Below are positions 3,898-29,100 of a stretch of DNA of 38,883 nucleotides, in pieces. How positions within the stretch are numbered: the stretch's first letter is position 1; each line of letters starts with the position of its first letter. The translations under genes and the position numbers were made by a program. Source of the DNA: Catajapyx aquilonaris (taxonomy: Eukaryota); the NCBI GenBank assembly GCA_000934665.2, contig KZ538960.1:1-38883 (forward strand), read 5' to 3'. Under the pieces are notes generated by a model. That model was not told where the DNA came from, searched no databases, and was given only the letters and a program-made list of their open reading frames with translations.

Positions 3898-4079
3898 AGG
3901 CCCATTCACACAGACCGTCGACGGTTTTGGTCTTTGGTCGCGCTGACGCCGTGGACCAATCATGACTCGTGTAAACAAGCGCAACACTTGTATTGCGCTT
4001 GTTTACATGAGTCATGATTGGTCCATGGCATCAACGCGACCAAAGACCAAAGCCGTCGACGGCCTGTGTGAATGGGCTT
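3898..4079. mobile_element. Palindromic PIF/Harbinger-type MITE, copy 1 (182 bp)
   Basis: Whole element is a near-perfect inverted repeat starting AGGCCCATTCACACAG; TAA at 3895-3897 and 4080-4082; related copy at 13461-13636. Confidence 0.9.
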
Positions 4080-4811: not shown

Positions 4812-5575
4812 TCACATGAGGCTGCACCACCTCCCCCATCCCCTCCCACCACCTCCGCCATCAGCATCTACTTCAACCGCTTCCACCTCCTCTCCCCTGC
4901 CACTTGCGGGATAGTGCTCCTCCCTCTCTACCCTGCTTGCACCTCCAGCCCTGTCCACCTCGTCATCCTCCAGTCTTCTGACGGAGACTGCCACTTTGTT
5001 GAGGCTCACCACCTTGGCTTCGTTTACCACCATGGCATTTCCTAACCTGCTGCTTCTCCTTGCGCTTCCCTCCCGCTTCTCTTGCTCGAACTTCGCCTTT
5101 GATGCTGGCGTTGGGGTGCTGGTGCGGGGCTGTGTTGAAGTCCTAGGGCGGCCTCTTGGGCGCGGTGGCGGGTCAGGCGTCTTTCGCTTCTTGGGTGGCG
5201 GAGGTGAGGGCCTAGTGCGCCCCCGACTCCGGCTGCGGCTCCTGGAACGCTTCTGGGGCGGCGGCGGCGGCTTCTTTGGCGCCGACTTGCGCTTCTTTGG
5301 TGGCTCCGACGAGGCGGATGAGGACTCGGAGTCGCTCTGATCGTACTTGACATTCTTACGGGCCTGCTGCCTCATGTTGCTAACCAGGAGCTTGGTTGCT
5401 GTCGTCTTGTGCGGCGGCGAGCTGCTACCTACAAAACATTTTGTGTGAATATTCCATATTCGACTCCTTCTCCTTTCGTACGATGCTTACCTGACTTGTT
5501 GGACTTGGCCGTGGATCTTGTGGGTGTCCTGGTCCGCATGCTGCGTCCGGTGGGTGTCTTCTTAGGGGACGGCAT
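4812..5575 (-). CDS. Uncharacterised basic, low-complexity protein with AT-hook, NLS-like motifs and C-terminal CaaX (CSLM), ~233 aa
   Basis: Coding exons 5575-5491 (ATG CCG TCC CCT AAG AAG..., donor CAG|GTAAGC, phase 1) and 5428-4812 (acceptor TTTGTAG) join in frame with the listed 187-aa ORF. Protein MPSPKKTPTGRS...PPKKRK...RSRSRSRSR...PPKKRK...PRPRGRPR...RRSSRL...GRWCSLM*. Further acceptor TTGTTTACAG at 5628 precedes the ATG. Confidence 0.75.
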
Positions 5576-8399: not shown

Positions 8400-9513
8400 C
8401 AGCGTTTCTCAACTGGGGTTGCTCGAGATATAGTGATGAATGGGCTAATCATGACACATGTAAGCGCCAGTCGCACCGAGAGTGGTATAAACCTGGCATT
8501 CTTTTGGAAAAGCCATACAAATTTGTATAGTTATTCCGAAAGAACGGCGGGTGTATCATATACCGCGCTCGGTGCTACCGGCCCTCTATGTACTTCTGGG
8601 TCGTTAATTGATAGGTCTATAATACAGTTGAATCCAGATATAACAGCCTCGGCTGTAACAGACTCTTCATTGTAACAGACTCAAAAGGCCAGTCCCGCCA
8701 TATTTCCATAAGGCCATGTGTATTTTACTCCTGATGTGACAGATCATTTTTTGGCCCCTCTGCGGTAAAATATGCTGTTTTTGATTACTCAGTTCCTTTC
8801 CCATGCGAGGGAAGCAGTGCATACTGGAGCGGGGATCATTTTCTTACCTGTCACTGTTCTAACACTTGCTGAAAATGTCAAAATCTTTCTTTTTCTGGTA
8901 TATTTGGCAAAGACAAGATGGCAGAAGGGAATGACGAATTTTTTTGGGGTGTTGCCTAAGTTATGGATGAGCTAATTTGGCATGTTTGTGGGTAGTTCTA
9001 GTTACATTAATCAGTATGCAGTATTGTGCATTATAAGCATATGAAAGCTGAAAACTTTGGGTGTTCATTGCAAGAGTGGCAATTTGGCTATAACCGACCT
9101 CAGTTATAACAGCCCGATTTCCTCAGTCCCTTGAAGTATGTTATATCCAGATTCAACTGTATAAATTTATGTCGGGGGTTCCCTGAGACCACCCCCCTGT
9201 TACTCCTACGAGGCTGGGGCTCAAATCCCGTCCCTGTCACCTCTGCTTGGCCGGGTCTGCTTTTTACCCGACATGCCCGGGTGGAATTGCACTCCCTACT
9301 CTGCCCAGGGCCAGGAGAAAAGGCCTGGTATTGAAAGAATGGGGGGNNNNNNNNNNNNNNNNGGGAGCGCCAGCACCAAATTCCCGCATGGTGGAGACTT
9401 ATATTAAACTCCCGTCAACACAGGGCTAGGCTGGAAGAATCAGGGGGCTGCCTGAAATTCTGCCCGAATATTATTTCAGGGTTCCGCAAGGGTAAAATGG
9501 TTGAGAAACGCTG
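8400..9513. mobile_element. Non-autonomous hAT (Charlie-like) element
   Basis: TIR CAGCGTTTCTCAAC / GTTGAGAAACGCTG and a perfect 8-bp TSD GTTTAGAG at 8392-8399 and 9514-9521; contains an N gap at 9347-9362. Confidence 0.88.
8625..9159. mobile_element. pogo/Tigger-type MITE nested in the hAT element, 535 bp
   Basis: 21-bp TIRs CAGTTGAATC(CA/TG)GATATAACA; TA at 8623-8624 and 9160-9161. Confidence 0.85.
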
Positions 9514-9663
9514 GTTTAGAGTGTTCCTAGGCAATTGTTCAATATATTGCCCCTTTTATAGGCGTAAGAGCAGCTTACAGAACAAGACTAAAGCGCAAGC
9601 ATTATGTAGAGGCAAGGTGTCATGAACAGTATGCCGTTTTTTTGCCCAGTGTGCATGCTGTAA

Positions 9664-9714
9664 AGGCCATTTCACAAAAAAAATGTCGCGCGACATTTTT
9701 TTGTGAAATGGCCT
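9664..9714. mobile_element. Minimal 51-bp palindromic Harbinger-type MITE
   Basis: AGGCCATTTCAC-A8-TGTCGC / GCGACA-T7-GTGAAATGGCCT, with TAA at 9661-9663 and 9715-9717. Confidence 0.75.
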
Positions 9715-9825
9715 TAATGCTTCAGAATTGTTCATCATGATTTTTGTTGAAGTAAATATTTTTGTTTCAGACTTGTCAGTCATCAAAAGATGAGCCCCAT
9801 CTAGACGTAAGCGGCAAAAGCAGTC

Positions 9826-12800
9826 ATGGAGTCATACGGCTACGTGGCAGTGATCCGTAAGAATGGAGCAGAAGGGTCCAAATTAGAGCTAGAGGGTGGG
9901 CGGATTACCTTTGGCCGCTCAGCAGATAATTCCGTCCGCATCCAATTCAATACTGTGGCTGACCAGCACTGCTACATTGAAGCAGATTCCAAGACTGGAC
10001 GTATCCATTTGGTCAACCTGGTCCGAGAAAATCCTGCCCTGCTGAATGGGACAGGGTTAACCCCAAATAAAAAGGCAACCCTGAAGACAGGTGATGTCAT
10101 CAATGTTGTTGGGCGGGATTTCCGCTGGGTCAGAAATGCCAGCAGGAAGTCACCACCATCAAGCCCGAAGAAGTTTCCTTCTATTTCACCCACGAAGTTG
10201 GCATCGACATCTCCTAAGAAGGCCCTTGCCTCACCCAAGAGGACATTGTCTCCAAATAAGTCACCAAAGTCACTTAAGAAAACTGTGGCTCCGAAGAAGA
10301 AGTCTTTAATTCCAATGCCAGTTTCATTGCTGAAGAAGTTAGGGACACCGAAGACACCTGCAGTGCCTAAGAAGTTGACCTCTCCAAAGCCTTCTGTGTC
10401 ATCTAAGAGGGTAGCATCTCCAAAGGCATCTGCATCGCCGAAGAAAGCAACCTCTCCAAAAGCATCTGCATCGCCTAAGAAGTCGGCTTCTCCGAAGACA
10501 TCTGCATCACCTAAGAAGTTTGCCTCGCCAAAGAAATTGGCATCACCTAAGAAGTCAGCTTCTCCGAAAACATCCGCAACACCTAAGAAGTTTGCCTCGC
10601 CAAAGAAATCAGCATCACCTAAGAAGTCAGTATCTCCAAAGGCATCTGCATCGCCTAAGAAGTCATCCTCTTCGAAGAAATCACCATCGCCTAAGAAGTC
10701 AGCATCCACAAAGACACCTGCATCACTGAAGAAGGCAGTGTCTCCAAAGAAGTCGGCTTCACCCAAGAAGAGGAAGAGATCTGTAAGCTTGGAGGGCACG
10801 TCCCCAAAGGTGAAACGGATTAAAAGGACTGGAGTGTCATTTGGACCTCAATTGAGTCCAGAGGTATATGATAGAAAGCTCCCACCAATAACTCCAGTGA
10901 GAAGAGGGGGCAGGCCTCCCTCCCGGAGAGTGCCCACCCCTAACTACTTTGGGAACCCCATCATTTATGAGAGAGGTTTCAAGCGGAAGTCGGAACCATT
11001 CCAGGTGGGTTTCTTTTTCTGGGAATGTAGCAGTAAAGATTATGTTGGGCTGGTCCAACTAAAATCTATCCTGCAACAGATCCTTTGTCTCATGTAGAAC
11101 TGCTAAATTTATTGATTTTCTCATTTTTAAAAGTCACAACTACTGGTGGCTGGCACTTCAACCAAGCAAAGGTCAGCCAAGTCCATCGGTGCATTTGCAA
11201 GTCCATTCGTAAGAGGGAAGATGAGAAGGCTCACTGCCGCTACCCCAATGCCACCTGAGTTGGAGGTGAGTCATTATACATACTTGATCATGGCCATTTG
11301 TAATGATAATTTTTTTCTCTTTAGGACTTTGGAACGCCATCAGGTTCTGTCCCCATGGTCGTGGATTCACCTCTGGTATCCCCAACCAAGAACTCCCCAC
11401 AGAAGACTACCTCGAGGAAGTCACCAAAGAGTGCTTCTCCAAAAGCAGCAACACCTAAGAAGTCTCCAAAGGTGGCTTCTCCAAAAGCAGCAACGCCTAA
11501 GAGGTCTCCGAAGGTGACTTCTCCAAAAGCAGCAACGCCTAAGAAGTCTCCTAAGGTGGCTTCTCCAAAAGCAGCAACGCCTAAGAGGTCTCCTAAGGTG
11601 GCTTCTCCAAAAGCAGCAACGCCTAAGAGGTCTCCTAAGGTGGCTTCTCCAAAAGCAGCAACCCCTAAGAAGTCTCCAAAGGTGGCTTCTCCAAAAGCAG
11701 CAACCCCTAAGAAGTCTCCAAAGGTGGCTTCTCCAAAAGCAGCAACCCCTAAGAAGTCTCCAAAGGTGGCTTCTCCAAAAGCAGCAACGCCTAAGAGGTC
11801 TCCAAAGGTGGCTTCTCCAAAAGCAGCAACCCCTAAGAAGTCTCCAAAGGTGGCTTCTCCAAAAGCAGCAACGCCTAAGAGGTCTCCAAAGGTGGCTTTA
11901 TCCAAGATGTCTCCTACTGCCAAATCATCTCCTGTGAAATCAACACCTACTATCTCATCAAGTGTGGCACGTTCACCAAGCCTTTCACCTAAGGCAACCC
12001 CAAGAGGGAAGTCGCCCAAGAACTCACCCAGAAAGTCTAGATCACCTAAGAAGGTGATTCCAAAGGTTGCACTGAAATTTCCGTCTATGGAATCACCTGA
12101 GGATTTGCAGGGGTCAATTTTCCATGTGCCTGAATCACCGGTTTCTTCACCAACTATGACATCACCCACTAAATCTGCTAGTGAAAAATCTCCATCTAAG
12201 ACGCCCAGGAATGCCACCCCTGAAAAATCTGCATCGTCTGAGATTCCCAGACAGTCCAAGGCTGGAAAGTCTAGTCCAACAAAGACTACCAGGAAATCCA
12301 GTCCTGGGAAAATTGCGGCAGTCAATACTCCTCAGAAGCCCGCTTCCAGGAAGTCAGCGCCTGGAAAATTTTCTTCAGTTCAGGTACTAAAGAAAAGCAC
12401 AACTTCACTGACTTCACCTAATAAACTTGCACCCGTAGCCTTGTATGTGAAGGAACCACTGATTCCTGCAGTGGAGGTGAGTGAAAAAGTGTGTAGGGAA
12501 TGTGAAAGGACGTGTTCCATGATCCGTTTTGTTGCTGTGAACCTTCCTTTCGGAGGAGATCGTACCTAACAATATCGGAATCTAAAGTTACACTCGGGAA
12601 ATAGAAATTTCCTTGCCTTCGGGGGGGGGGAAGAGAGAGAAGGAGAGAGCACATCACAGCCTGAAACATTGGAGTTCACGAATTTGAAACCCTGATTGTA
12701 ACAAGTGGTAATCCCAATAGTTAAAAAGAAAACGAGAGTTTCACTTTTCTGACTGTGTCATTGTTAGGTTCCATCTCCACTAAAAATTGTGGTGTACTGC

Positions 12801-15800
12801 AACGAAATTGATTCTGGAACACATCATTTATGCTTGATCAGAAAATATGTAAAATGAATCGTGATCTATGTGGTTGTTAGAAACTATTCTTTATTTACAA
12901 AACACCATGCATGATACTTCAAGATATTTGTCTTATCCATAAACACCGTTTAAACCTTGATACAAATCGATTTTTATTATTACAGCGAGTGTTAAAAAAA
13001 ACTATGTTGTCATGAGCTTCAAATCCTATTGATCAATTCAGTGTGTTTGTCTAATGAGCATAAATTTTGAGGCGCAGATGAAAGTGCTGCAAGTGTTCAA
13101 GAAGAACATTTATCTTGAGGGACTGAAAGAATTTGTGATGCAAGACCTGTGCATGAGCATGCAATGTTGATTTATGTTGCAACAAAATATTGGCCTTTTC
13201 TCCAACCATTTTTTTTATGTTTTTTTTTTTCTTCATTAAATTTGTAACATTCTGTGTCTCCAGGGGAAGGCAACGCCTAAGAAATCTCAAGCAAGCAAGC
13301 CAGCCACTCCCAAGGGAAGTCAGAAATTGTCCAGGGCTAGTCCAAAATCTGCAGCGTCTAAGGTGAGTCGTCGCATTAATTTTAACCATTTATGCCATGC
13401 ATACTCATGACAACCAGTTTGTCTTATGGCATGATGTGTTTCATTTTTTCGAAGGTGTAAAGGCCCATACACACAAGCCGTCGACGGTTTTGGTTTTTGG
13501 TCGCGTTGACGCCGCGGACCAATCATGACCCAAGTAAACAAGCTCTAAACAATGGGTTGCGCTTGTTTACATGGGTCATGATTGGTCCGCGGCGTCAACG
13601 CAACCAAAACCGTCGACGGCCTGTTTGTATGGGCCTTAATGTTGCTAACATATGTTGTACATACTGCATGACTTTGCCATAAACCATGTAAGTTAACAAG
13701 GCCAGACGTGAAATTTGCATTGGGATTGCTTAGACACATTTGCATTTTTTAATAAAAGACATTTGAATAAGCAGTTTCATTGGGAGACATACTGTATGAA
13801 CAGCAGACGTAACATTAACCTAGAAGTTCCTTTGTAGGTGAAGGTTAGTGTTAATGTGTTCAGTCTTTATTCTCCAGAAGTCCACACCTCAAAAACTCTC
13901 TGAATCTCCAAAGACCATGAAGGAAACCACACCAGGATCTAAGAGTTGGGAAAAGTCGACTGCCAAGTCCAAAACACCTGTGAGTAATTTTAACCTCTGT
14001 GAGATCTTTTGTTTTATGTAAATGAATTTACATTAATGCCCCTGTCGTTTATCAAAGTCGCAATTGTATCATTTACTGTTGTTTTGTTTGTTGGCCAACA
14101 GGTTACCCCAAAATCCAGTCAGGCGACACCTAAAAGTAAGGGCAAGGATGCTGTCCGCAAACGTTCCACATTGTTGACAGAGACCTCTGCTCTCCTCGAG
14201 GTGGATCCTGCATTGTCAGTCCTGAAATCTCCTCCTAAGTCCAAGAGAGTGACCATGAGCCTTCCCAGAGCTATCAAGAGGAGGAGGGCTACAGAAGTCA
14301 GCATGACTCCAGTGGCTGTTCCAGCCAAACGGACCAGATTGTTATCCACTCCAAAGGTGTCTGCCAAACCCAAGCAGACACCCAAGCAGACCCCAAAGTC
14401 AGCAGTTAAGCTTCTGTTTCCAGACAGGGCAACCCCACAGACACCAGCAGTAAGGAGGCCAGCTACGTTGCTTGAAATTAGTAGGAGGAAGACCCCAGCA
14501 GCCAAGAAGCCACTCTACTCATCTGTGGTCAAGGCTGGAAGGTTGTCCAAGAGGAAGTCCGTCCTGCTTAAGTCTGCCGTCAAGAAGAAGAAGCAGCCTA
14601 CCAAGGTGTCCAACAGAAAGTCCATCCACAATGTTAAGATCGTAAGTCCAAATCATTAGATTGCAATAGAGCCATTTTACACCCTGTTATAGGTAAACTG
14701 TTTGTGTGTCATAAAAATCGAAATAATTGAAGATTCCTAGCACCTGGAGCCATTATAAATTTTAAAAATTGTTGATTTGTGATGTTTAAACCAAACTTGA
14801 CACACCATAAAGAATATACAGTATAGTGGGAGGAAGAGAAGGAAAACTGAGTTTCACCTGATCACGTAATGTTAGTCGCTCCGGTTAAAATTGCATGTCG
14901 GGGAGACTCCTGAGATCCATGCAGTTGGCTTTGGTTTGACACAATATCTTCCTGTTTCTCTTAGGTTGTAGCCAAGAAGTTTGAAGCTGCCGCCAAAGGT
15001 CGTAAAAAGAAGCCCAAGCTGTACTACCTTTCATCTGCCGAGACCAGTCCAGTTTCACCATCCCCTCATGCCCCATCCACCTCCACTCCAGCGTCTTTGG
15101 CTCTTTCTCACTTGCCTTCAAATTCATCCACACAATCTGCCACACTTTCCTCTGCAGACTCCTCTGCAAATCCCTCACAGGTCATTCAGAATGTGACATC
15201 ATTTGATTTTGCGGGCTCTACCACTCCGCAGATCTCTTTAGAACGTTTTGTTTCACCCATTGCCACTGCGACACCACACCCTGAATATGTGAACATATCT
15301 GGGATACGTGGCCATTTTCGGGTCCCATCATCTACCCCACTGGACATCCATGACCTTGGGGTGGTCAAAGTCTCTCCGAAGAAGTCGGTCGACTTTGTTA
15401 GCTTCCGTAATGTCATGCGTCGCAAGATGGCCGCAAATCTTAATACAGAAGGTTACACTGGAGTTGGTTCTATGCTTAGAACACCCGAAGACAGCACACC
15501 AGTTGCTGTGGCCACTGCTGTTCCAGATGTTCCAGGCTACACGGGTGTGAAGCGATTATTCAGGAAGAGCCACGTCCCAGATTACTCGCAGGTCATGGGT
15601 GTGCGAAGAGTTCTAGCTGGAAATGCTGGTGGGGCCACACCAGATTACACCGATGTGGCTGGCATCAAGAAGATGATGCAGGCAGCAGCCGCTGGAAATG
15701 ATGGGAAGGTCAGCTTTGATGGGATTAAGGAGTTAATGGCCACACCAGAAGGTTGGGAGGAGACGAGAGGTGCTGCCAAGAGGAAGGGAGCGAGAGCAGG

Positions 15801-18800
15801 TTAGTGAAACACTCATGTTTAGTTGGTGTCGCACAAATGCTGTGTTAGTGTTGCATGAAGCAATTTAAAAGTTACGATTTGCTGGACTATTGAATTGCTT
15901 CTGGAATAACGAAAAATGTCTGCAATGGGATTTGTATGTTGGGAGAATGGAGCAGATGTTTTTTGATAGTATGGCAAAATATCCCTGATGTTTTCACATG
16001 TGATGTGACCAGTGAGAAGACTTATTTAACCTGCAAACAGACAACATTAATTTTCTCAACAAAAAAGCATCAAAAAAATCATTAAAATGTTATGTTCCAT
16101 GAGAGACTCATCAGTGATGCTCTTTTAATGTTTTGCGGTTTACAGTGTAGGGAAGGAGAAGGAAGGAGTCAAGTAGAGGTTGGGAGCAATTTGACACTGC
16201 AATGTCACAGTTGCATGAGGTTTTCTGCAAATCTACTGGTCATTTTAGTGATGTAAATAATTTTTCCAGCAAATTTTCTAATACTGATACTGGATATGAT
16301 TGTACAAGTAAGCAGTTTCAATGAGACAATATTATATTCCATTTCATAACTTTTGCTCCAGTCTGTGCATTATAATACTCCCGCAGGAGCAAAAGTCTTA
16401 AAATGGGCTGGAAAATTTTAAATATGATCCCTGATAATATACAGTATTGCTCATTTAGCGGAGAAAGGCGTCAAGAGGCAACAACATACCAAACATTGGA
16501 GTCAGATGCAGCTTTGTAATTTAGGCACATTGTCAAATGTTGCTGGTAGCATTTTAACTGGCATGCTGTGCCAGGCAGAATTGGTTTTTTGTGCAGGGAA
16601 GAAGCGTTTAAATGAAGCTTCATGGGCCTAACCTTGTAATGTGCACCATTGCCCCCATCAGTCGGTTTGAGTGATCAAATGCATGAGTTTGTTCCTCAGT
16701 TTGCTCCCATTGTAACCTATTGGACCATTTCCAGTCTGAATCCCTTGGGGATAGGTTGACATTCCTCAGTTCTCTCAACATCCCACTTTCACCCTTGGTC
16801 AAACACAAGCCTGCCTACTCTGTGATGCGCAACCAGTGACTTAATTTACATTTCGTGTGCTGCAGTTGAAGCCAAGCCAACTGGAAGGAGGAAGATGGCT
16901 TCTGCAACCTCCACCCCAGTGCTAGTTCCAGCTGAGTTGACTCGCCCACCATCAATGACAACCCTTCCCTCGCCCATTCCTGCAGTAACTAGGCACCAGC
17001 AGAAGACCCGTCCTTCCGTGGTTGCAAAGCCAGCTGGAGTTCACAAAAAAGGGAGGAAGAAGATTACAAAGGTGGTGCGAAGAAGCACCATGCAGGTATG
17101 ATGAATTGTTACAGTGGTTGAATAACCCCACATTTCACACGTTAGAACATGAATTATGTGCATTAAATTTAAACTGCATATTAATGCAATAACAGTCTGC
17201 CTTGGTGAAAGTTTTCACTACTGAACAGGTTAATGGGACTTCAAAATTACACTGAATTGTCACAAATAATTATTTCGTAATGGGCAAGTTTTCACTGACA
17301 GTGTGTATGTGATGTATTTTACTAGGTTGGCAATGGAGTGCTAATGGAAAAGATAAATTATGGGGGGTGTACCATATCAGTAGATGCTGTGTTTGGTTTT
17401 GTCACTTAATGCTTAACTGACGTTAATGTGGTAGCATAACGGTGGGTTATTATTGACTAATTGACCAAGGAATACACAAAATCTGCGTGTCACTAGGAAA
17501 GACTAGGGTGACACTGAAGGGTAACAAGAATTGAATGGGTTACTGGGAAAATTGGGCTTTCCAAGTTGCACTTTCGGAAGAACACTTTCGGGGTATATAC
17601 TAGTAATGATAAGGCCCCTTCCACTTGTTGAAATATTTTAGCAAGATTGTCATACACCCACGGACCCTCTCCACAACACCCCTGTCCAAATCTCATTGCT
17701 CTCAATCAGCGCCTGCTGCCATGATGCCAGAACAGTGTTCACTAAGCATCTGCAGTTGCCACTTCCAGTTTGTATTTCCTCCCTGAACATGATCCTATTT
17801 TATTCCTATCGGTCAGGAATAAGATATCTCCCACCTCCCACACCACGTATATTTTCTTCAACAGCTGCACTGCGGCCCTGAAACAGCGTTGGGTATACTA
17901 GCTAATAAGACCACTTCTGGTTAGAATATTCATTCCTAAAGTGGTCCTCTTTTACTCCAAATGGCCTGGAGTATCCTACTAGCAGAACAACTAGATTCTG
18001 TGTGTTTATTGGTCAGTTGTAGTTGATAATTACCAAGAAGGTGTTGGTCGTGAGGGTTGTGGTGGGATTTGGGTTCTGGTTTATGTTTGCAAACATTTGT
18101 GACTTTCTCGCAGGGACATACGGCTGTAGCCATTCTGATAGATTTTAGTGTCATCCTCTTGTGTAAAGATGCATATTTAAATTTCTGCTGCATATAATCC
18201 TGCAATGTGGGAAGGACAACTTCTTGAAATGCTGATAATTTTTTAAAAAAACTTGGTCATCATTCAAGTCATGCAAGCACTGCTCAGGAATTAAATTGCA
18301 GAAACAAAGCGTCTAATCTCAGAATGAACAGAAGCCCCATAAATAGCCCAGACAGCATTGCCAAGTCTGGGTTTCATGTTGATTATGAATTATATACTTT
18401 TATCATCTTCACAATTTATTGAAATGTTTTGGTGAAGATATTTATTCAGCTCTTTTTCTTACCATTTCATATAAGTGGATAGAAAACTGGTACTTTTTTA
18501 AATGTTCCAGCTGCAGCATTGCCATTACTTCAGGTGGGGAAGAGCAGTAACGTGACAACACAATTGTTGCACACTAATCGTTTTCTTATTGACAAGGACT
18601 CAGACTTGGCAGTGTTCTACAGGTTATTTGTAGTTATGTCATGAAGGTATTGGTAGTTTTTGTTAACTTATTAAAGGGTGACTTCACTATGCGTTTTATA
18701 ATGTATAGATCTATAGGCAACAAATCTGGTTATTCCTTGAATGATGTGCGACTAAATCTCTTGCCTTTCTGCAGGTGGAGGAAGTGGTGACTGTAGAAAG

Positions 18801-21485
18801 TGTGGCTGACTCAGAAGAAGAGAAGAGTTTGGAGAATACTCCTGTGAAGACCCGCCGCCAAAAGGGGACATTCATGATGATGCTTACAGAGGATATACAT
18901 GAGTCTCCTGTCAAGAAAGCAGGAGGGGCTAAGAAGGGGGTTGGTGCTGCTGCCAAGAAGGGATTGCCAAAGAGGGCTTCTAAACATAATGTCTCGGAGG
19001 CCAAGAAGCCAGCTACCCGAGCAAAGAGGGGTGGGAGTCGACAGGATACCCTCAAGCCTAAAGTTGCCTCTGATGGACTTGTTGTACCCAGTCCAAAACC
19101 AACCACAACTCGCAAAAAGTCCTCTGCAAGCAAGGCTACCAAGAAGAGGGTTGTTATGAGCAAGGTCAAGGGAGTACAAAAGGCCAAAAAAGCATCCCTG
19201 GCAAGAAAGTCAAAAGGAACTAAGAAAGCACCAGTGAAGGCCACCATCCCCTTGAGCAAAGATGATGGTAAAGACCAGCCATCTGAAGACGGCATCTCCA
19301 GCAGTGACAAGTCACCACCAGCCAAAGGAAGGGGTGCAAAAAGAGGGGCACCTCATAGATCCCTTAATACAAGCTCTGTCACAAAGCCACCTGCTGGCAG
19401 GTCTACCCGAGGAAAGAAACAGCAAGCTGATGGCTTGACTGCCCAACCTTCACCGGTGGCCACGAGGACTCGTCCAGGGAAGGCTTCAAAACCCACCACT
19501 AAGGCGGCTAAGACGGGTAAGGGCTCCAGCACAGTCAAGAAGCCAGCAAAAGGGAAAACCACCCGAGGAAAGGCTGCATCAGCAGATGAAAGTGCAGATC
19601 TCATGTCGCCACAACAAGGGAAGGAGTCACCAGCCGTGGCTCGGCCTGCAAAGAAGGCAGCACCTGTGAAGGGGAAGACTGCTTCTCCAGTTAAGAGGCC
19701 TAAGAGGGGCAAGGCAGCCTCTGCCAACAACACAAAGGTTTCACCAGTCACTAGCAGGGCTCCCAAAGAGATGGCACCACTCAAGGGCACCATTGCAAGT
19801 GCCATAAAGAAGCCTCGTAAGGGCAAGGCTGCCAGGTCACAAGCAGTGCCACTGGCCAGTTCTACCAGTTCAGCTGAGGAAGTGTCAGTGGCTACTGCAG
19901 GAAGGTCCCAGAAAACTAGAGCTGGGAAAACTGTTAGCAAAAAGCCAACTAGTGTTTCCAGTTCTGCAGAAGAGGCAGTAGTGAATCCTAAGAAGAGTAG
20001 AGCTGCGAAGGTTGCTAGCAGAAAGGCGGCTGGTGATTCCAATGTGGCAGTAGGGGGAGCCGGAAGTCCGAAGAAGACGAGAGCTGGGAGGTTTGCTGCC
20101 AAAAAGGCCGGTGGTGGTTCCAGTTCGGCAGAAGAGGGGTCAGTAGGTGCAGCAGCAAGTCCGAAGAAGACGAGAGCTGGGAGGTTTGCTGCCAAAAAGG
20201 CCGGTGGTGGTTCCAGTTCGGCAGAAGAGGGGTCAGTAGGTGCAGCAGCAAGTCCAAAGAAGACGAGAGCTGGGAGGTTTGCTGCCAAAAAGGCCGGTGG
20301 TGTATCCAGTTCGGCAGAAGAGGGGTCAGTAGGTGCAGCAGCGAGTCCGAAGAAGACGAGAGCTGGGAGGTTTGCTGCCAAAAAGGCTGGTGGTGTATCC
20401 AGTTCGGCAGAAGAGGGGTCAGTAGGTGCAGCAGCAAGTCCGAAGAAGACAAGAGCAAGGAAGGTTGATAATAAGAAGATAGCCACATTGAAGCCGAGCC
20501 GAGCCAAGGACTCTGAATTAGATGGCAAGGAAGCAAGCAATAGGGTGTCACCTCAGCAAGTTATGAAGCTAAAAGCAGTCCAGCGTCGGCTGTCTCGACC
20601 CAAGGTTACATTGACTGTCACGCTTGAGCCTGCATCAGATCTCAGCAGTTCAGGGGAGCAGTCAGTCACCTTTGATGTGCCACAACCCTCAACATCAAAG
20701 GCAGCAGTTAAAAAGTCTTCACGTAAGGCAGCCAATGGCACCACGACTTTGACAACTAAATCGAAGTCCACTGCAGCGAAGCCGAAACCTGCAGCCAAAT
20801 CCAAGCCTGCTTCTCGGTAAAGCTATTTTCTAATACTCTTCACTGACAAATGAGCACCTGGAATTCACTCTTAATTAGAATAATATAATTCCTGGCTCTA
20901 TTGTCGTATTCTAAATGGCCTTCAGAACCATAACTGATGTTGTTTTTTCGTAGGGATGTATCTCTCTCACCTGCCAAGACTCGACGTGGAACTCGGAGTC
21001 AAATGCCAGCCGCCCAGTCTCCTGATAGTGTGCCTAAGCGGAAGTATACGGTGACTGAATCTGACAGCACCCCTCCAAAACGGTATGTCCAACTTACAGG
21101 CTGATGTAGGGTGTCGGGAGAAAACACGTAGGGTAGCTGGGTAGCTGGAAAGTTTCTCCCAAGTGCTTTAAATGCCCAGAATTAGATTTTGTATTCATTT
21201 ATTTAGACGGTAATATGAAATTTGCGATTCTTTCTTGGACCTTAAAATTCATTTTATGGCCTGGAGCTCCAAACTTGGTGGATTGGTTTTCCCTTGCTCT
21301 TAATTGATTGGTTTTAACGATTAAAGTTGGCCCAAGCTCTATAAAAAGAGGTAGTGTGTAACTAGCTGTCTACATTGTTTTTCATTGCATATGCTGAATT
21401 TCACGACATTGACAACATTTTCTCTTCCAGTTCAAAGGTTCACACTCCAGCCCCACGGGCCCTTCGGTCTAGGGTGAACAAGTAA
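9826..21485 (+). CDS. MKI67-like: Proliferation marker Ki-67-like protein, ~2164 aa, 11 coding exons
   Basis: Exons 9826-11004, 11134-11265, 11325-12476, 13264-13362, 13878-13979, 14102-14641, 14965-15799, 16866-17095, 18775-20816, 20954-21082, 21431-21485, all GT-AG and phase-compatible. N-terminal FHA (VIRKNG...TFGRSAD...IQF...QHC...NP.LLNG...LKTGDVI...R.FR), PP1-binding-like VSFGPQLSPEVYDRKLPPITPVRRG, LYSSVVK block, GIKELMATP/GVKRLF-type motifs, basic disordered remainder ending RALRSRVNK. Confidence 0.8.
10380..10770 (+). repeat. Degenerate coding 18-bp repeat (SPKKSA / SPKASA units)
   Basis: About twenty 6-aa S/T-P-K-type units in the first coding exon. Confidence 0.85.
11421..11897 (+). 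repeat. Coding 42-bp tandem repeat, 11 units plus partial (SPKVASPKAATPK[K/R])
   Basis: Near-identical units at both DNA and protein level. Confidence 0.95.
13461..13636. mobile_element. Palindromic PIF/Harbinger-type MITE, copy 2 (176 bp), intronic
   Basis: Same family as 3898-4079 (AGGCCCATACACAC...CCGTCGACGG...CCAATCATGAC); TAA at 13458-13460 and 13637-13639. Confidence 0.9.
20065..20457 (+). repeat. Coding 93-bp tandem repeat, 4 units plus partial (SPKKTRAGRFAAKKAGG.SSSAEEGSVGAAA)
   Basis: Near-identical 31-aa units, with degenerate SSSAEE units just upstream. Confidence 0.95.
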
Positions 21486-21887
21486 GACCCTCATCAAGTA
21501 CAAAGAATCAAGTAGAACTATCAAGTAGATGGAAGAAAATATTTATATGGGATATGCCAGTTGGCAATTTTTTTTTTGTTGGAAAACGTAATAATTGATC
21601 ATCAGTAGGATCGATTATTATTATCGTTTTTAAAAATTATTCAGAAAAAGATTTTGCATCAAAGTTTTTAAAAATGTACTCTTAAAACGATTGTAGCATT
21701 TGGAAGGTTTGACCTGTATTTATCAGATATGTTTAACAGTGCCTTGGACAACTGTATTTTTTCAAAAACCAAGACTTCAAAATTGCTGTTATTCCATTGG
21801 CAAGCATGGTCAAGTTGTTTTTTTGTATGTGGGAGGCAGTAATCTTGGTAGTTCTGGCAAAGTTAATTTTTAAATTTTGATGCATTA

Positions 21888-22015
21888 AGCCACGTTTACA
21901 TGTGAGTGATTTGATCGACTATGTTGCAGCGATTGCATGGCTGAGTGCGATCGATATTGTTACCTTCTCTCAGCCATGTCATCACTGATCAAATCGCTCA
22001 CATGTAAATGCGGCT
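21888..22015. mobile_element. Harbinger-type MITE, 128 bp, in the probable 3' UTR of the Ki-67-like gene
   Basis: ~29-bp imperfect TIRs (AGCCACGTTTACATGTGAGTGATTTGATC), internal CATGGCTGAG/CTCAGCCATG inverted repeat, TTA at 21885-21887 and 22016-22018. Confidence 0.8.
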
Positions 22016-23132: not shown

Positions 23133-26100
23133 ATGCTGAACCTGTGGAAAGTCAGGGAGATCGCCGACAAGGTGTAAGTTAAAATTAAAAAATAAATTGA
23201 AGAAGAACATAGATACGTGTAGAATCAGCTGACGTCAAATTTTTTGGAACGTCCATTGAATTTAATATGGATCGGTTGGACTTTTATTTGGAATGGGTCG
23301 GAATTAGAAGGTCTTGTAGCGCACAAGCTGGGTTACGAGCGACCATACTGTTGTAGAAATTGCATGTCCATGTTGGGTATTGTTAGTTGCGACGCCACAC
23401 GCTGAGGTTAGCAGCTGCTGGTTGGATAGTATGCGCTGTTATTTGAGTCGCAAGTTGCTTGCCGAACGATCCGAAAGCGAGCGTAGATACTAAGCGACAT
23501 CATGGAATATAAAGCCAGCTGATTCTCTTGGCTGTGTAAACGCTCGAAGTTTGTGCCACTGACAGGGTAGGCCTTGTAAGCTCAGTCGCCTGTGCGAAGG
23601 CCTGTGGCAAGATTCCTGAAGTGTTTCGAAGCATATGACATGTTTGGTGAGGCCGTGACTAGCCATGCTGTTGGTGTAAGTTTAAAGCGAATCTTAACAA
23701 GTTTTTTAACAAATGGCAAAGGCAGCCAATATCGCATATTGAAACCTGATGACTTTGTAATCTGCATCGTCAGCTCTGATGCAAACTGGCAGTCTTATAT
23801 ACGTGCGCAAAACATGTACTTTTTGCTCACGCCACCCTCAAAGAGTAGGAAAATTGCAAGTAAGTTTGTCGTGAAGGGGTTAATATTTTTATTTGCTAAA
23901 ACTGTGCTGGGCATGAAGTGAAATAACAATGACTTGCAATATTATGAGGGTGCTGTAATGATGCTGCGATGTTGTTGTGGACACTCGCCCGTAAGCGTGA
24001 AAGTGCCTGGAATAATATTGTGCTGATAGTACGTTTGGCTGTGCTTCTGCATGACTAATAACAGTGCTGCTCATTTGTATTGTGGCGCATGCGATATATG
24101 ACTGACTGGCCATCTGTCAGTGGTATTTTAGCTTCTATACTCATCACATTTTTATCACAGTGCAACCTCCTTAGCATGGCCTTTTGTTGGCAGTATTAAA
24201 ATTTGAAACTCAGTGCAGATGGGAAAGGTTATACAAGTTTGGCAATATTAATTAACACTGCTTACATGCAATGCGTATGAGATAATGAGGTGCATGTTGT
24301 ACTCAGTCCATTAAAAGGTTCTAAAGAGAATAATTATGGTGGTTATACAAAATGTCTATTGTGTTGCTGTAAGAACTAAGCAGTACAGTATGGCTACCAT
24401 AAAAAGTTGCAGTCCTGTTGATTAAATTATGTGCAAGGCGTGTCGGCTAGGCTTATTCATTTTCTGAAGTATAATGGTAGGGTGTATTACAATTGGGTTT
24501 TTAATGCAGGCCCTACCCAAATGCTTCATTGTCCTCCGCACTGCCATGCAGAGCTACATTATCCCTCTCATTTCGTCAGTGGCCTTGAAACCACTTGCCG
24601 GAAGGAAGTTTCCTGTCTTCTCTGTGCTTCCCATCACACTTGTGTGTAATTGTCATTTTATGACGCCTTTGTCAGCTGCACATAAAATGGTCTGAAGGCA
24701 GATGCAGTAATGGAAAAGCATAATTATTTGAAGTTCCTGTTTATTGTGTGAAGGCTATGTTACATGCATTCTTGCCATGGTTATAATGGCAGTAATGCCA
24801 AAGTGTGCAAATTGCTTTTGATAGGCTACAGTTCACACAGGTCCACATTTCATAAGGAGCATTCCATTTGCTCTTGTTGCTGTATCTTCTGTGATAACGA
24901 CGGACAGTACATTCATATACAACATCTGGGTCCTGAAATGTACTTGGAACTACATGGGCAGTTAAAATTATGATTGTGATACCATTGTTCTGAAAATTAC
25001 TTAAGTCCTGCACCAACTGTGTGTTAACCTTGGAGAAAAAACTGTATAAGAGTTGTAAAATAATAAATCGCCCTTTATATATAATGTGGCCTTCACATAT
25101 AATAGTAATAGACATTGTCCTGAAGTACATTTTTAAATATAACGCGCCTTGACTTGTTTGCAATCATCTCCATTTAAAATGATTTAATGAAGTGATTATT
25201 GTAATACAAGCCATAGTTGCACTGAGTGGGAAATGACAGCCATTTATCTTATATTGTATTCTTTCTTTATTAGGACAAATGTAGTAATGAATTACACGGA
25301 AATGGAGGCCAAAGTGAGAGAGGCGACAAATGACGAAGCATGGGGGCCAACAGGTATGTTTTAGGAGAATGCAAAAATACCAATTTTATCCGGTATATTA
25401 TTGATGCATTTTACTTTTCAAAACAGGTGCAATGATGCAAGAGGTTGCTCAGGCCACTTTTACCTATGAGCAGTTCCCAGAGGTAATGGGAATGCTCTGG
25501 AAAAGGATGCTGCAGGATAGCAAGAAAAACTGGAGGAGAACATATAAGGTATGTATATAATTTTATTATAACATGTTTATATTGTGTGTGAAGCAAGGTG
25601 AACTGCATGTTGAAAAAATTTGTTATTATTGCTTATTACTTTCAATTCATTCCTGATTTGATGTAAAAGTCGTGCACGTCACATCTAATAATTTTTAAAT
25701 AACCTAGGTGAGTTAGAACTTTTCAACCAGTCAAAATCTGCAGAATATCTATTCTCAATAGAGGGTTCTGAACAAATTAATCATGTTCATGTAATATTAA
25801 GAAGTATTATGTAAAACATTGTGAAACATGCCATGTGATTTTTTTTTAAAGCTTCCCAAATGTGAAAATTATGACTAGGAGGTTACATCATAAGAAACAG
25901 GTTGTTCATGCTACAACTTTCACTTGGAAACTTTTTTGTTGAGGTTTATTTTAAAACCTTGGAAGCTTGCTGTTTTCAAGCAGGCTTTGTATAGATAGAA
26001 TCCATTATGAATTATTATGATTACTATTATAAATCATAAAAAATGGCAGGTTAATCATTCCTTGTAAGCTCTTATGCTCTTACTTGATATCTGAAGCGAT

Positions 26101-29100
26101 TAGGAAACAAGGGCGCAGGTAAAAGAAGAGAACATGATTATCTCCAAACTTGCAGCTTTTATACTACCCTATCAACCAAGTCAAGCCTTATCTTACACCT
26201 TACCCTGGTTAAGAGATTCCATAACGGATCCTCATTCATCTGCAGGCTACAAGGCTGATTTATATGTATGGACAATATTGCCATGTTCTCTGCAACAATT
26301 ATATTTTCTGTTTCTCTATGTCCTTCCTATTGCCATGCACCATCATGCAGACACACACCAAGTACAAAAGAACTCCATAATAATTATAAGATTCTTGAAG
26401 CTACATGAACTCGCCTCATTGCATTGGTATGGTGGGATAGTCGTTGGAATTTTTGTGGTAGCCATTTTACACAAGTGGTGGGGAGAGGTGTATGCATTAG
26501 TGGTGTAATATATTTCATAGGGGGCCAGGAAGTATGCTAACTGCCTGTTGGGGAATTTTGGTGCCATGAAACATTTGGTATGTCCATCACCTTTCCAGGT
26601 ACACCATAAACCAGACATACTGGGTTTGTGAAAAGGCTTTAATTTTATGAGCTTTTTTTTTGTAGTTTCATGTAGCATTTATGTTTGATTCGGCTATGAG
26701 GGTCACAACATAATTTTGACCATAATATGTATACACTCAACTCATACGATCAGTGTGTAAAACATGGATCATAAGTTTTGTTAAGATAATGTGGATTTTT
26801 AAATTTTCCAAGGAGGGTCACTCCAGCAAATGTTAGATTGTAACAAACATTTAATTACCAATTATTTTATGCTTCCAGTCACTGCTGCTCCTAGCATATT
26901 TAGTGCGCAATGGGTCTGAACGTGTGGTGACGTCCTCCCGTGAGCACATATATGACCTTCGCAGCCTGGAAAACTACACATTCATGGATGAGTATGGAAA
27001 GGACCAAGGAGTCAATGTGCGCCACAAGGTGAAAGAGCTGATTGACTTTATTCAGGACGACGAAAAACTCAGGGAGGAGAGGAAGAAGGCCAAGAAGAAC
27101 AAGGACAAATATGTCGGGATGTCCAATGAATCCATGGGCTTTAGAAGCGGCTGTAAGTTACTTTCACTACTGTCCTATTATTGGGAATAGATGGTAAATC
27201 TTAAATACATTTGCTTACAGCAAGTGACCGTTGGGATGAAACACCCCGGTGGAAGGAAGAGGGATTCACGGACTGGGATCCAAACAAGAATGGTGGTGAC
27301 TCCAGTTTTGGGAGGAGTAAGAAGAGATTTGATGAGATGGGACACTCCAGGTGAGCACTCAACAATTGGTTAAAATGAGGGTGAGCTTAATGAAAAGTGA
27401 ACCACGATCTGTCCCATTTATAACTAAGAGAGCAAATAATATGCCACTTGTTGGTGTAATTATGTGTGAATTTAAGGCAACTCTTTGGTTTGTGGTTATT
27501 TTCGTTTATGTATAAAAGTCTCCAGAAGTGATCATTTAAAGAGGCATCAATACATTTTCATTTTGAAGAAGCCAAAGCAACTGTGGCCGTCTGCCTATAA
27601 TTCCTTATGACAATGAAGTAGCAGTAATAATAATAATCATAATCATAATCATAATCATAATCATAATAATAATGAATTAGCACATATATTACTGTAAGCT
27701 GGTATAGAACAGGGCTTCCCAGGAGTAGTTTGATGTTTTGTCTGGTCCCCAAAAGTGTTCCCTGTGCTTTACAAGGTAAAAACAACCCATGTCAATCGCT
27801 TGACAAGTTCTGCAAAATATTTGCAACATGTTTTGCCACTGCTGCAACAAATCTGTTCCAGCAGAGGATTTTACAAGATCAAATTCAAAATTGTCTCAAC
27901 ATTTTTTGTCTCACACTGCGTCAGTTTAGTGACAAAATCTCTTGAAAGCAATATTTCTTATCAAAACCGCATTTAACTTCCTCGAGGCCTGTTCCCGCAT
28001 TTATTTTGCAAATAGCAGTTGATGAACTAATAATGGATCCCCTATGTTTATTCAAGTTGTCACTCAAAGTCCTATGTCTTTTCAACTCTACAGTGTATTT
28101 TTTAAGATGCTCACCATTAGATAGAAATAATGCCACAAAAAATAAGGTGCCTCATAACTGCGACAGTGAGTTGTTTTGAAGGTTAAACCATGTGTTTTAA
28201 TCATAATTCTAGCTGTGATGATTTACATTGGCATCCTTGCAGTGACGAGGGTGAGAAGTTTGATTCAGACCACGAGAAAGGCAACAGTCCTGGAGGGCGA
28301 GAGTACCGTGACAGTGAGATTAAGGAAAAGCCGAAGCTCAAGTCTCCTGGTGCAAAGAAGGTTATTGACCTCGGTGCATCTGCAAATTATGGCCGTGACT
28401 CCTCGTCATCATCGCCTGCAAAAAGTCCTACGAAGAAGTCGCCTGACCTCTTCAGCAATCCAGTGGCACCAAGTGATGACGACTTTGATCCACGCGCTGG
28501 TGAAAATGGGGACTTTGGTAACTTCACTGCTGCCACACCTGACGCCAAAAGTGACGAGTTTGCTGACTTCACCAGCGCCTTCGATGCTTCTTCTGGTAAC
28601 CAGAGAGCAGCACCACAATCAGATGCAGATCTGCTTATGGGGTTGAATATGAACTCGGTTAGCAGCACTGGGCTTCCGGCTGGCATCCCTGGCCTTATGG
28701 GAGGAAATCTTCCTTCGTCTGGCATTCCCGGCCTCATGGGTGGAGTTGTGGCACCTAACCAGGGCATGCTGGGCAACCCTCCTGGCATCCCCAGCCTTAT
28801 TGGGGGTAACACTTCATCAAGCCTCATGGGTGGAATTTCATCCCCTCAGGGTGGTGGCAGCCTCACAGGTGGAGTTGCATCAACTAATCACATCCCGGAC
28901 CTATTAGAAGAAGGTGAGTGTTGCCACTTTACCTGCCCATAATCAGTGTGCCGTTTGTGTCAACATTTCTCTTGCAGCCTACAGTGCAACAATAAGTGAA
29001 ACTGCATCGAGACTTTTAGGAATGCTGAAAAATGATGACACTGCAGAACAGGCCATACGTGAAGTTTTGTTCTCATTCGTTCCGGGTCCTGAGACACCAC

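What the first reader, a model, noticed from the sequence alone, without database searches (positions are those of the whole stretch)
9826..21485. Full-architecture Ki-67-like gene in an invertebrate genome
Seen: FHA at the extreme N-terminus, then VSFGPQLSPEVYDRKLPPITPVRRG, an LYSSVVK block, clustered GxKxL-type motifs and a basic tail ending RALRSR, in the same order as in vertebrate Ki-67. Known: Ki-67 is mostly studied as a vertebrate protein and Drosophila has no generally recognised orthologue. Inference: a real orthologue, likely fragmented or mislabelled as histone H1-like by automated annotation, implying a Ki-67-based perichromosomal layer in this lineage.
Basis: partly seen in the sequence, partly recalled or inferred. 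Interest (0 to 1): 0.72.

Follow-up and report, generated by a model that had tools for sequence, protein, structure and literature searches.

The report
Ki-67 gene of an invertebrate animal
This is an intact, spliced invertebrate (likely arthropod) copy of the cell-division protein Ki-67, which likely coats chromosomes in mitosis as in vertebrates; invertebrate Ki-67 genes, including a fruit-fly one, are already published, so it is a new family member rather than a discovery.

Summary
The gene is real: 11 coding exons (9826-21485, +), ten GT-AG introns, one open frame of 2164 aa. Contigs of one run bridge 5 of the 10 introns. FHA and PP1_bind pass Pfam cut-offs. Human Ki-67 is the best PDB match by sequence and fold. 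A vertebrate Ki-67 FHA profile scores this locus 64 bits against 18 for the next of 16 FHA loci. It is the only PP1_bind match in the genome. Four short Ki-67-type repeats beat all 200 shuffles. LYSSVVK is weak, the TGHA.SP block is missing, and the FHA tree was unresolved.

Orthology is supported; novelty is not. Ki-67 from Hydra and Trichoplax was aligned in 2014 (PMC4032110), a Platynereis orthologue is published (PMC12669781), and Ciona and Drosophila homologues were tested in cells (bioRxiv 10.64898/2026.06.18.733134).

Oddities: FHA Ser45 is Ala, the PP1 motif reads GVSF, and there are 35 SPKK-type motifs. One spliced contig starts inside intron 7, a weak hint of a tail-only transcript. 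The scan had not noted this before. New member of a known kind; interest 0.2.

The parts
9826..11004 (+). Coding exon 1 (aa 1-393): FHA, first SPKK-type array, PP1-binding domain
   Evidence: its donor is bridged by a contig of run X1
9826..10137 (+). Ki-67-type FHA domain; keeps G30, R31, H48, N74; Ser45 is replaced by Ala
   Evidence: Pfam; PDB 2AFF E 1.8e-10; model pLDDT 95.6, best fold match 1R21 TM 0.85; residue counts
10348..10770 (+). Tandem array (18/36/72-bp periods) coding ASPKK-like units
10825..10926 (+). PP1_bind domain: GVSF in place of RVSF, then a KiR-SLiM-like YDRKLPPITPVRRG
11134..11265 (+). Coding exon 2
   Evidence: joint to exon 1 in X1
11325..12476 (+). Coding exon 3, with a 42-bp x 11.5 array (11417-11898) of 14-aa basic SP/TP units
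   Evidence: splice joints not bridged
13264..13362 (+). Coding exon 4 (predicted)
   Evidence: GT-AG sites and frame only
13878..13979 (+). Coding exon 5 (predicted)
   Evidence: GT-AG sites and frame only
14102..14641 (+). Coding exon 6: AVKLLFPDRATP (14402-14437, like a motif in three invertebrate relatives) and LYSSVVK (14513-14533, likely the W-A-D-V-V-K core)
   Evidence: joint to exon 7 in X1
14965..15799 (+). Coding exon 7: four short Ki-67-motif-like units (15442-15753) and weaker ones; read-through past the donor meets TAG at 15802-15804
16726..16865 (+). End of intron 7, carried by a contig that is spliced downstream: possible alternative 5' end or retained intron
   Evidence: one run, contigs only
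16866..17095 (+). Coding exon 8; in-frame ATG at 16895 (aa 1357)
   Evidence: joint to exon 9 in X1
18775..20816 (+). Coding exon 9: K/A/S/R-rich basic tail with a 93-bp x 4.4 array (20048-20456)
20954..21082 (+). Coding exon 10
   Evidence: both joints in X1
21431..21485 (+). Last coding exon, ending RALRSRVNK and TAA
21486..22522 (+). Likely 3' UTR; contig reaches 22480, AATAAA at 22517

Best explanation
This is the genome's single detected Ki-67 gene, with an FHA domain, a PP1-docking domain, short Ki-67-type repeats and a very basic chain, predicted to be one 2164-aa protein that likely coats mitotic chromosomes under a CDK/PP1 phosphorylation switch. Shown: the domains and their order, the single copy by search, one open frame over 11 exons, 5 of 10 splice joints, pI 11.25, net charge +351, 145 S/T-P sites. 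Inferred from vertebrate and Ciona work: the basic tail binds chromatin; CDK1 phosphorylation in early mitosis extends the chain into a brush that keeps chromosomes apart; dephosphorylation at mitotic exit exposes basic patches that condense with RNA and cluster chromosomes. Inferred for this protein: the 35 SPKK-type motifs are phospho-switched DNA-binding units; the FHA binds phosphothreonine weakly or not at all; PP1 still docks through V-x-F and the KiR-SLiM, probably without the Aurora B R-x-S switch. With no second PP1_bind gene found, it likely stands for both vertebrate Ki-67 and Repo-Man.
For: Pfam FHA and PP1_bind over cut-off. Of 68 hits to exon 1, 67 carry FHA and PP1_bind, and every hit whose name states a family says Ki-67; mollusc, nemertean and amphipod proteins are among them. 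PDB: human Ki-67 FHA first (E 1.8e-10), then the Repo-Man and Ki-67 PP1 peptides; CHFR FHA only E 0.054. Fold search ranks 1R21 and 2AFF first and MDC1 at 18. Reciprocal test: 64 bits against 18 for the next of 16 FHA loci. One PP1_bind match in the genome; FHA and exon-6 queries find only themselves. Repeats beat shuffles and lie in one exon, as in vertebrates (PMC8354752, passages). Eight relatives checked carry 541-1019 aa after the last repeat; this model has 833. Length, pI and composition resemble Elysia, Tubulanus and Trinorchestia. Mechanism: bioRxiv 10.1101/2023.11.23.568026 (passages); PMC5005033 (passages); Ciona Ki-67 reaches the perichromosomal layer in HeLa cells; SPKK biology in PMC9903204 (passages).
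Against: The FHA tree did not resolve a Ki-67 clade; no starred set holds the window. The strict RVxF consensus is not met at the PP1_bind site: 106 of 111 distinct motifs have Arg before Val, and 111 of 111 have Phe where this has Tyr348. FHA Ser45 is kept in 117 of 120 relatives (mostly vertebrate, chosen by a pattern). The GHA..SP block is missing and LYSSVVK is not above shuffles by profile. No LR domain was identified. Phosphorylating all 145 sites would leave +61, so no charge reversal; 14 of 132 relatives also stay positive, at most +45. Introns 2-5 and 7 are unbridged. The Drosophila homologue behaved unlike human Ki-67 in HeLa cells, so orthology does not guarantee the same behaviour. 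There are no localisation data for this protein.
Confidence: 0.85

Rival explanations
1. The locus gives two products: full-length Ki-67, and a shorter mRNA from a promoter in intron 7 that codes only the 808-aa basic tail from Met1357, a free chromatin-binding protein of histone H1/protamine-like composition.
For: A 1689-base contig of run X1 begins at 16726, 140 bases upstream of the exon 8 acceptor, with no loose end, and is spliced at intron 8; no contig joins exon 7 to exon 8. The in-frame ATG at 16895 has A at -3 and G at +4; only one short upstream ATG lies in between. Three TCAKTY initiator-like hexamers lie within 16658-16771. Tail composition: K 15%, A 15%, S 13%, R 7%.
Against: One run, contigs only, library not on record; contigs cannot show a start site. 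Unspliced pre-mRNA or 3' bias explains it equally well. Initiator hexamers are common: 5 in this 1066-base intron, 10 in 4099 bases of the other nine introns. Pfam found no family, so no H1 globular domain, in exons 8-9.
Confidence: 0.12
2. Two separate genes: a Ki-67 that stops at TAG 15802-15804 (1347 aa) and an unrelated basic protein gene from exon 8 onward.
For: Intron 7 is unbridged, and its donor (CAG|GTTAGT) overlaps an in-frame stop. An ATTAAA lies at 16081.
Against: Donor and acceptor match in phase (1 in 3 by chance). Eight of eight relatives checked carry 541-1019 aa after the repeats; the short model would leave about 16. The tail has 10 TR[GARS][GRK] motifs, like the 3-9 in those relatives' tails, and aa 104-1331 has none. 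No AATAAA in intron 7.
Confidence: 0.05
3. A true orthologue whose job has shifted: with worn FHA, RVxF and conserved-domain motifs and SPKK arrays, it acts mainly as a phospho-switched, H1-like DNA-binding chromatin protein and not as the organiser of a perichromosomal layer.
For: Ser45Ala, GVSF, Tyr348 and the missing GHA..SP block. SPKK-type density is 16.2 per 1000 aa against at most 9.1 in 132 relatives. The Drosophila homologue differs in behaviour.
Against: Most of these changes recur in other invertebrates: Ala at this FHA position in Lottia, Asp in Elysia, GVSF in P0066. In human cells a PP1-binding mutant still rescued the chromosome periphery (PMC4032110, passage), and positive charge, which this protein has, is the key feature for clustering.
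Confidence: 0.1
4. Not Ki-67: an FHA protein of another family (MDC1, CHFR, NBS1) or a Repo-Man-type protein with chance motifs.
For: The FHA tree is unresolved. The PP1 stretch matches Repo-Man peptides (E 6e-06) slightly better than the Ki-67 peptide (E 6e-05).
Against: FHA, KiR-SLiM and repeats occur together in family order. Ki-67 ranks first by sequence, profile and fold. Repo-Man and Ki-67 share only about 40 residues (PMC5005033).
Confidence: 0.02

Closest known systems
Vertebrate Ki-67 / MKI67 (PDB 1R21, 2AFF, 5J28; features from PMC8354752 and PMC5005033, passages read)
   Same: N-terminal Ki-67-type FHA (31% identity in the fold alignment, TM 0.85), PP1_bind with KiR-SLiM, repeat motifs in one exon, basic low-complexity chain, many CDK sites, same order.
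   Different: Four short degenerate repeats and no KI67R hit; GVSF for RVSF; Tyr for Phe in the KiR-SLiM; FHA Ser45 is Ala; no GHA..SP block; no recognisable LR domain; much more basic (net charge per residue 0.16 against 0.02-0.07 in the five fish proteins); SPKK arrays.
Non-vertebrate Ki-67 homologues of Haider et al., bioRxiv 10.64898/2026.06.18.733134 (parts 1-7 of 11 read; Table 1 and supplements not seen): Ciona, Drosophila CG42232, crab, tick, Daphnia, molluscs and others
   Same: Same definition (N-terminal FHA, PP1 motif, disorder, basic pI, repeats, S/T-P sites) and about 2000 aa. Composition resembles their P/A-rich, highly basic cluster (octopus, oyster, starfish, Capitella, lancelet, sea urchin, sponge).
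   Different: Their strict RVxF pattern is not met at the PP1_bind site, and full phosphorylation would not reverse the charge. Unlike the acidic Drosophila protein (pI 4.5), this one has pI 11.25. I could not see whether their table includes this lineage.
Predicted invertebrate Ki-67-like proteins in databases: Elysia P0003, Tubulanus P0010, Trinorchestia P0062, Armadillidium P0119/P0350, Macrobrachium P0125, Chamberlinius P0092, Styela P0097
   Same: FHA-type N terminus; for the full-length ones, PP1 domain, core, repeats and basic tail in the same order, with similar charge and S/T-P density.
   Different: Elysia, Tubulanus, Trinorchestia and Armadillidium keep GHA..SP and a basic residue before V-x-F; none of 132 relatives reaches this SPKK density.
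Platynereis ki-67 (PMC12669781, passages read)
   Same: Invertebrate gene with FHA and PP1-binding domains, S/T about 20% (here 22.6%).
   Different: Annelid, and shown to be enriched in proliferating cells; no such data here.
Repo-Man / CDCA2 (PDB 5INB, 5IOH)
   Same: Shares the RVxF plus KiR-SLiM PP1-binding stretch.
   Different: Similarity is limited to about 40 residues. No second PP1_bind gene was found in this genome, in line with Ki-67 being ancestral (PMC4032110).
SPKK-bearing sperm histones of sea urchins and hydrozoans (PMC9903204, passages read)
   Same: Tandem S/T-P-K/R-K/R motifs (35 here).
   Different: No histone fold or H1 globular domain; likely convergent. It may work like them in DNA binding but is not a member.

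Membership tests
Ki-67 | N-terminal FHA domain of the Ki-67 type | tested here: met
   Pfam; PDB; 64 against 18 bits among 16 own FHA loci; fold search ranks 1-2 (the model used an alignment of Ki-67-like FHAs)
Ki-67 | FHA groups with Ki-67 in a tree | tested here: inconclusive
   55 rows, 106 columns; no starred set holds the window, and outgroups scatter on long branches
Ki-67 | FHA phosphothreonine-binding residues (G, R, S, H, N) | tested here: inconclusive
   G30, R31, H48, N74 kept; Ser45 is Ala (117 of 120 keep Ser). Lottia also has Ala and Elysia Asp
Ki-67 | PP1-binding domain (PF15276) with KiR-SLiM after the FHA | tested here: met
   37.9 bits, cut-off 27; PDB 5INB, 5J28; F-to-Y change at the first KiR-SLiM position
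Ki-67 | Strict RVxF consensus [RK]-x(0,1)-[VI]-{P}-[FW] in that domain | tested here: not met
   Reads KRTGVSF; the pattern matches only at aa 26, 38, 1208 and 1316. The preprint says 'most', not all, homologues have it, so it is typical and not required
Ki-67 | Conserved block W-A-D-V-V-K ... TGHA.SP between PP1 domain and repeats | tested here: inconclusive
   YSSVVK lies at the expected place but is not above shuffles by profile; the second half is absent
Ki-67 | Ki-67-motif repeats, in a single exon | tested here: met
   4 units above all 200 shuffles, all in exon 7. No hit to the long Pfam KI67R model (Elysia and Trinorchestia also lack it)
Ki-67 | Large, basic, many S/T-P sites | tested here: met
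   2164 aa, pI 11.25, 145 S/T-P, 56 full CDK sites
Ki-67 | Mostly disordered outside the FHA | not tested
   Inferred from composition only (K, S, A, P, T make up 61%); no disorder predictor was run
Ki-67 | C-terminal LR chromatin-binding domain | tested here: inconclusive
   Last 300 aa are basic (0.14 per residue) but L+R is only 0.11; one PxVxL-like motif at aa 2032; no alignment to a vertebrate LR domain was made
Ki-67 | One transcript from FHA to tail | tested here: inconclusive
   One frame over ten GT-AG introns; 5 of 10 bridged, intron 7 not
Ki-67 | Perichromosomal localisation; expression in dividing cells; NIFK and PP1 binding | not testable with these tools
   Needs cells. Pfam hNIFK_binding gave no match over cut-off in the genome, which is uninformative because the NIFK gene was not located
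Repo-Man (CDCA2) | KiR-SLiM protein without an N-terminal FHA or Ki-67 repeats | tested here: not met
   FHA and repeats are present
Histone H1 / SPKK sperm histones | Linker-histone globular domain or histone fold | tested here: not met
   No such Pfam family at E up to 1 in the seven exon ORFs scanned (exons 1-3 and 6-9); exons 4, 5, 10 and 11 (18-43 aa) were not scanned

The most novel reading that the evidence does not exclude
A Ki-67 gene that also makes a free linker-histone-like protein: a promoter inside intron 7 drives a spliced mRNA for the 808-aa basic tail alone. The full-length protein, having lost the FHA phosphothreonine Ser, the Aurora B-type Arg of its PP1 motif and the TGHA.SP block, would grip DNA through 35 CDK-switched SPKK motifs like sea-urchin sperm histones. 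Ki-67 would then be a source of stand-alone chromatin-packing proteins.
Probability: 0.12. Interest if true: 0.55.

Novelty: new member of a known kind. Interest (0 to 1): 0.2.

Why it matters
As a plain orthologue it adds one divergent, likely non-insect arthropod sequence to a family already traced across animals, and a possible proliferation marker for this animal. It is a natural variant for asking which parts of Ki-67 matter: it keeps charge, length and CDK sites but changes the FHA pocket, the RVxF Arg and the TGHA.SP block. A rescue in MKI67-knockout cells would therefore test 'charge and disorder suffice' against 'motifs are needed'. A tail-only transcript, if real, would be a new product of a Ki-67 gene; one narrow literature search found no paper on one (0 papers with all five terms).

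Tried and rejected
FHA tree with 11 own-genome FHA domains as outgroups: unresolved, long branches; 4 partial own-genome FHA matches (L010, L014, L016, L017) were left out. Profile and matrix tests of the LYSSVVK region: not above shuffles. A matrix for TGHA.SP found nothing in the model, and a six-frame pattern scan of 9001-22000 printed no GHA-type motif, so no missed exon was found. Pfam KI67R: no match, and the control rang nowhere, so it is uninformative. Pfam hNIFK_binding: two matches under cut-off. No RNA holder was listed by the run search; run X1 has no library on record and gave contigs only. Uncovered exons and depth differences are not used as evidence. TELO2 gave only fish hits at 27-38% identity and did not help with lineage. 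The C-terminal R-x-[TL]-R motif is weak support: only 15 of 90 distinct relatives' ends match it. KVSF at aa 1316 fits strict RVxF but overlaps a repeat unit whose relatives read TSF; I did not treat it as a second PP1 site. No complex prediction was run: no PP1 or NIFK sequence was in hand, and these pairs would pass by likeness to solved structures. Supplements not seen that may bear on claims: Table 1 and supplements of the 2026 preprint, and Supplementary Fig. 4 of PMC12669781.
Full report
Observation. I read 9500-21499 and translated the candidate exons. Eleven coding exons on the + strand (9826-11004, 11134-11265, 11325-12476, 13264-13362, 13878-13979, 14102-14641, 14965-15799, 16866-17095, 18775-20816, 20954-21082, 21431-21485) are separated by ten GT-AG introns and give one frame of 2164 aa with no internal stop. 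Contigs of run X1, the only run listed (library not on record), bridge introns 1, 6, 8, 9 and 10 at the predicted lengths (129, 323, 1679, 137 and 348 bases); introns 2-5 and 7 are not bridged. Three other joints in that table have non-canonical ends and lie outside coding exons. The 3' contig runs to 22480, near an AATAAA at 22517.

Identity. Pfam finds FHA (40 bits) and PP1_bind (37.9 bits) over their cut-offs in exon 1, and no family in the other six exon ORFs scanned. A protein search with exon 1 returned 68 proteins; 67 carry both domains, most are fish Ki-67, and Elysia, Tubulanus and Trinorchestia are among them. In the PDB the best sequence matches are the human Ki-67 FHA (E 1.8e-10) and the Repo-Man and Ki-67 PP1 peptides, with CHFR at E 0.054. 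The FHA model (pLDDT 95.6) matches 1R21 and 2AFF first (TM 0.85) and MDC1 at rank 18; it was built on an alignment of Ki-67-like FHAs, so this is not fully independent. The genome search found 16 FHA loci. A profile from 23 named vertebrate Ki-67 FHAs scores this locus 64.2 bits and the next 18.1. PP1_bind has one match in the genome, this one; the assembly is fragmented, so a missed gene is possible. The FHA tree (55 rows, 106 columns) was unresolved and is not used.

Strong and weak parts. A matrix from 555 repeat units of relatives gives four units at aa 1228-1331 with 9.8-22.8 bits, above the best of 200 local shuffles (7.7). They lie in one exon, as the review PMC8354752 says of vertebrate repeats (passages). 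LYSSVVK lies between the PP1 domain and the repeats, where relatives have W-A-D-V-V-K. A profile score of 1.5 bits was reached by 21 of 200 shuffles, and a core matrix did not rank it first. A pattern written after seeing it occurs in 47 of 5000 shuffles. A motif 38 aa upstream (AVKLLFPDRATP) resembles one in Elysia, Tubulanus and P0066 (0 of 5000 shuffles, also post hoc). I take it as the likely homologous core. The partner block GHA..SP, found in 89 of 89 retrieved proteins with the core and 150 aa after it, is absent.

Departures. FHA Ser45 is Ala; 117 of 120 distinct relatives keep Ser (the set is mostly vertebrate and was picked by a pattern over positions 29-39). The preprint lists this Ser among the phosphothreonine-binding residues. 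The PP1 motif reads KRTGVSF: 106 of 111 distinct motifs have Arg before Val, and 111 of 111 have Phe where this has Tyr348. In human Ki-67, Aurora B phosphorylates the Ser of RVSF and weakens PP1 binding 25-30-fold (PMC5005033, passages). Loss of that Arg would likely remove the kinase site; this is inference, with the R-x-S consensus recalled. Most changes are not unique: Lottia has Ala and Elysia Asp at the FHA position, and P0066 has GVSF. The protein has pI 11.25, net +351, 145 S/T-P and 56 full CDK sites. Its 35 SPKK-type motifs (16.2 per 1000 aa) exceed all 132 relatives compared (at most 9.1; the set includes isoforms). Full phosphorylation at -2 per site leaves +61, and 14 of the 132 also stay positive.

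Lineage. The neighbouring FIGNL1 AAA domain is 76% identical to Limulus. It sits with two horseshoe crabs (SH-aLRT 94, unstarred, long branch), outside the starred clade of seven vertebrate-type rows (54 rows, taken from the 120 hits). Earlier scan notes call this genome arthropod (unchecked AI notes). 'Invertebrate' is supported; 'non-insect arthropod' is likely but not firm.

How it most likely works. By orthology and by charge, length and CDK-site density, the protein likely behaves as vertebrate Ki-67. Phosphorylated in early mitosis, it would form an extended brush on chromosomes that keeps them apart. Dephosphorylated at exit, its basic patches would condense with RNA and cluster the chromosomes (bioRxiv 10.1101/2023.11.23.568026, passages). 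Ciona Ki-67 reaches the perichromosomal layer in mammalian cells, while the acidic Drosophila protein behaves differently; this basic protein is closer to the Ciona type. SPKK motifs bind the DNA minor groove and are switched off by phosphorylation (PMC9903204, passages), so the arrays at aa 204-315 and 480-623 are plausible phospho-switched basic patches. None of these steps is shown for this protein.

The intron 7 hint. One spliced contig begins at 16726, 140 bases inside intron 7, with no loose end, and no contig joins exon 7 to exon 8 (4 contigs laid on 14000-17300). An in-frame ATG at 16895 would start an 808-aa K/A/S/R-rich protein. This fits an internal promoter, but also retained intron or 3' bias; contigs cannot tell these apart. 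A split into two unrelated genes is less likely: the splice phases match, eight relatives all carry a 541-1019-aa tail after the repeats, and the tail shares their TR-G-R/K type motifs.

What is known. Booth et al. 2014 aligned Ki-67 from Ciona, Saccoglossus, Hydra and Trichoplax and called Ki-67 ancestral to Repo-Man (PMC4032110; section 6 and passages read). A Platynereis orthologue with FHA and PP1 domains was reported with phylogeny (PMC12669781; passages). Haider et al. (bioRxiv 10.64898/2026.06.18.733134; parts 1-7 of 11 read; Table 1 and supplements not seen) identify Ki-67 homologues across animals, including crab, tick, Daphnia and D. melanogaster CG42232, and test two in cells. Databases already name invertebrate and fungal proteins Ki-67-like.

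Verdict. Observation confirmed; orthology supported; novelty low. New member of a known kind, interest 0.2. The residual interest lies in the worn motifs, the SPKK arrays and the possible tail-only transcript (probability about 0.12).

Noticed in passing
window 28908-31472 (+): An intronless 854-codon TELO2 frame (Pfam Telomere_reg-2 and TELO2_ARM) appears to lie inside an intron of an ENTH-domain gene on the same strand. ENTH exons lie at 25427-25548 and 26880-27153, a further exon ends near 28913, and low-complexity frames that look like later exons lie at 32170-32514 and 33236-33430 (the 32170 frame had no Pfam hit, and the epsin-related label is recalled).
   Followed up: partly
window 1034-3335 (+): Fidgetin-like 1 (FIGNL1) gene, spliced; AAA domain 76% identical to Limulus.
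   Followed up: partly
window 4812-5575 (-): Small basic, proline-rich spliced gene, divergent from the Ki-67 gene; no Pfam hit in the 4812-5483 frame.
   Followed up: no
window 9790-9804 (+): A four-codon upstream frame (ATG at 9790, stop in frame) lies 36 bases before the Ki-67 start codon, just after an acceptor-like site near 9769, suggesting an upstream non-coding exon and a short uORF.
   Followed up: no
window 13460-13640 and 3897-4078: Two copies of a palindromic, MITE-like element of about 180 bases, one in Ki-67 intron 4; seen by eye, no repeat search run.
   Followed up: no
L004 and L006 (G000:C6436, C1671): Two near-identical kinesin-associated FHA loci on different contigs: a recent duplication or an unmerged haplotype in the assembly.
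   Followed up: no
P0108, P0113, P0166, P0101: Fungal proteins (Coemansia, Chytriomyces) have Ki-67-like FHA domains but no PP1_bind-type motif by my pattern; in the FHA tree the Coemansia rows nest among vertebrates on a long branch.
   Followed up: no
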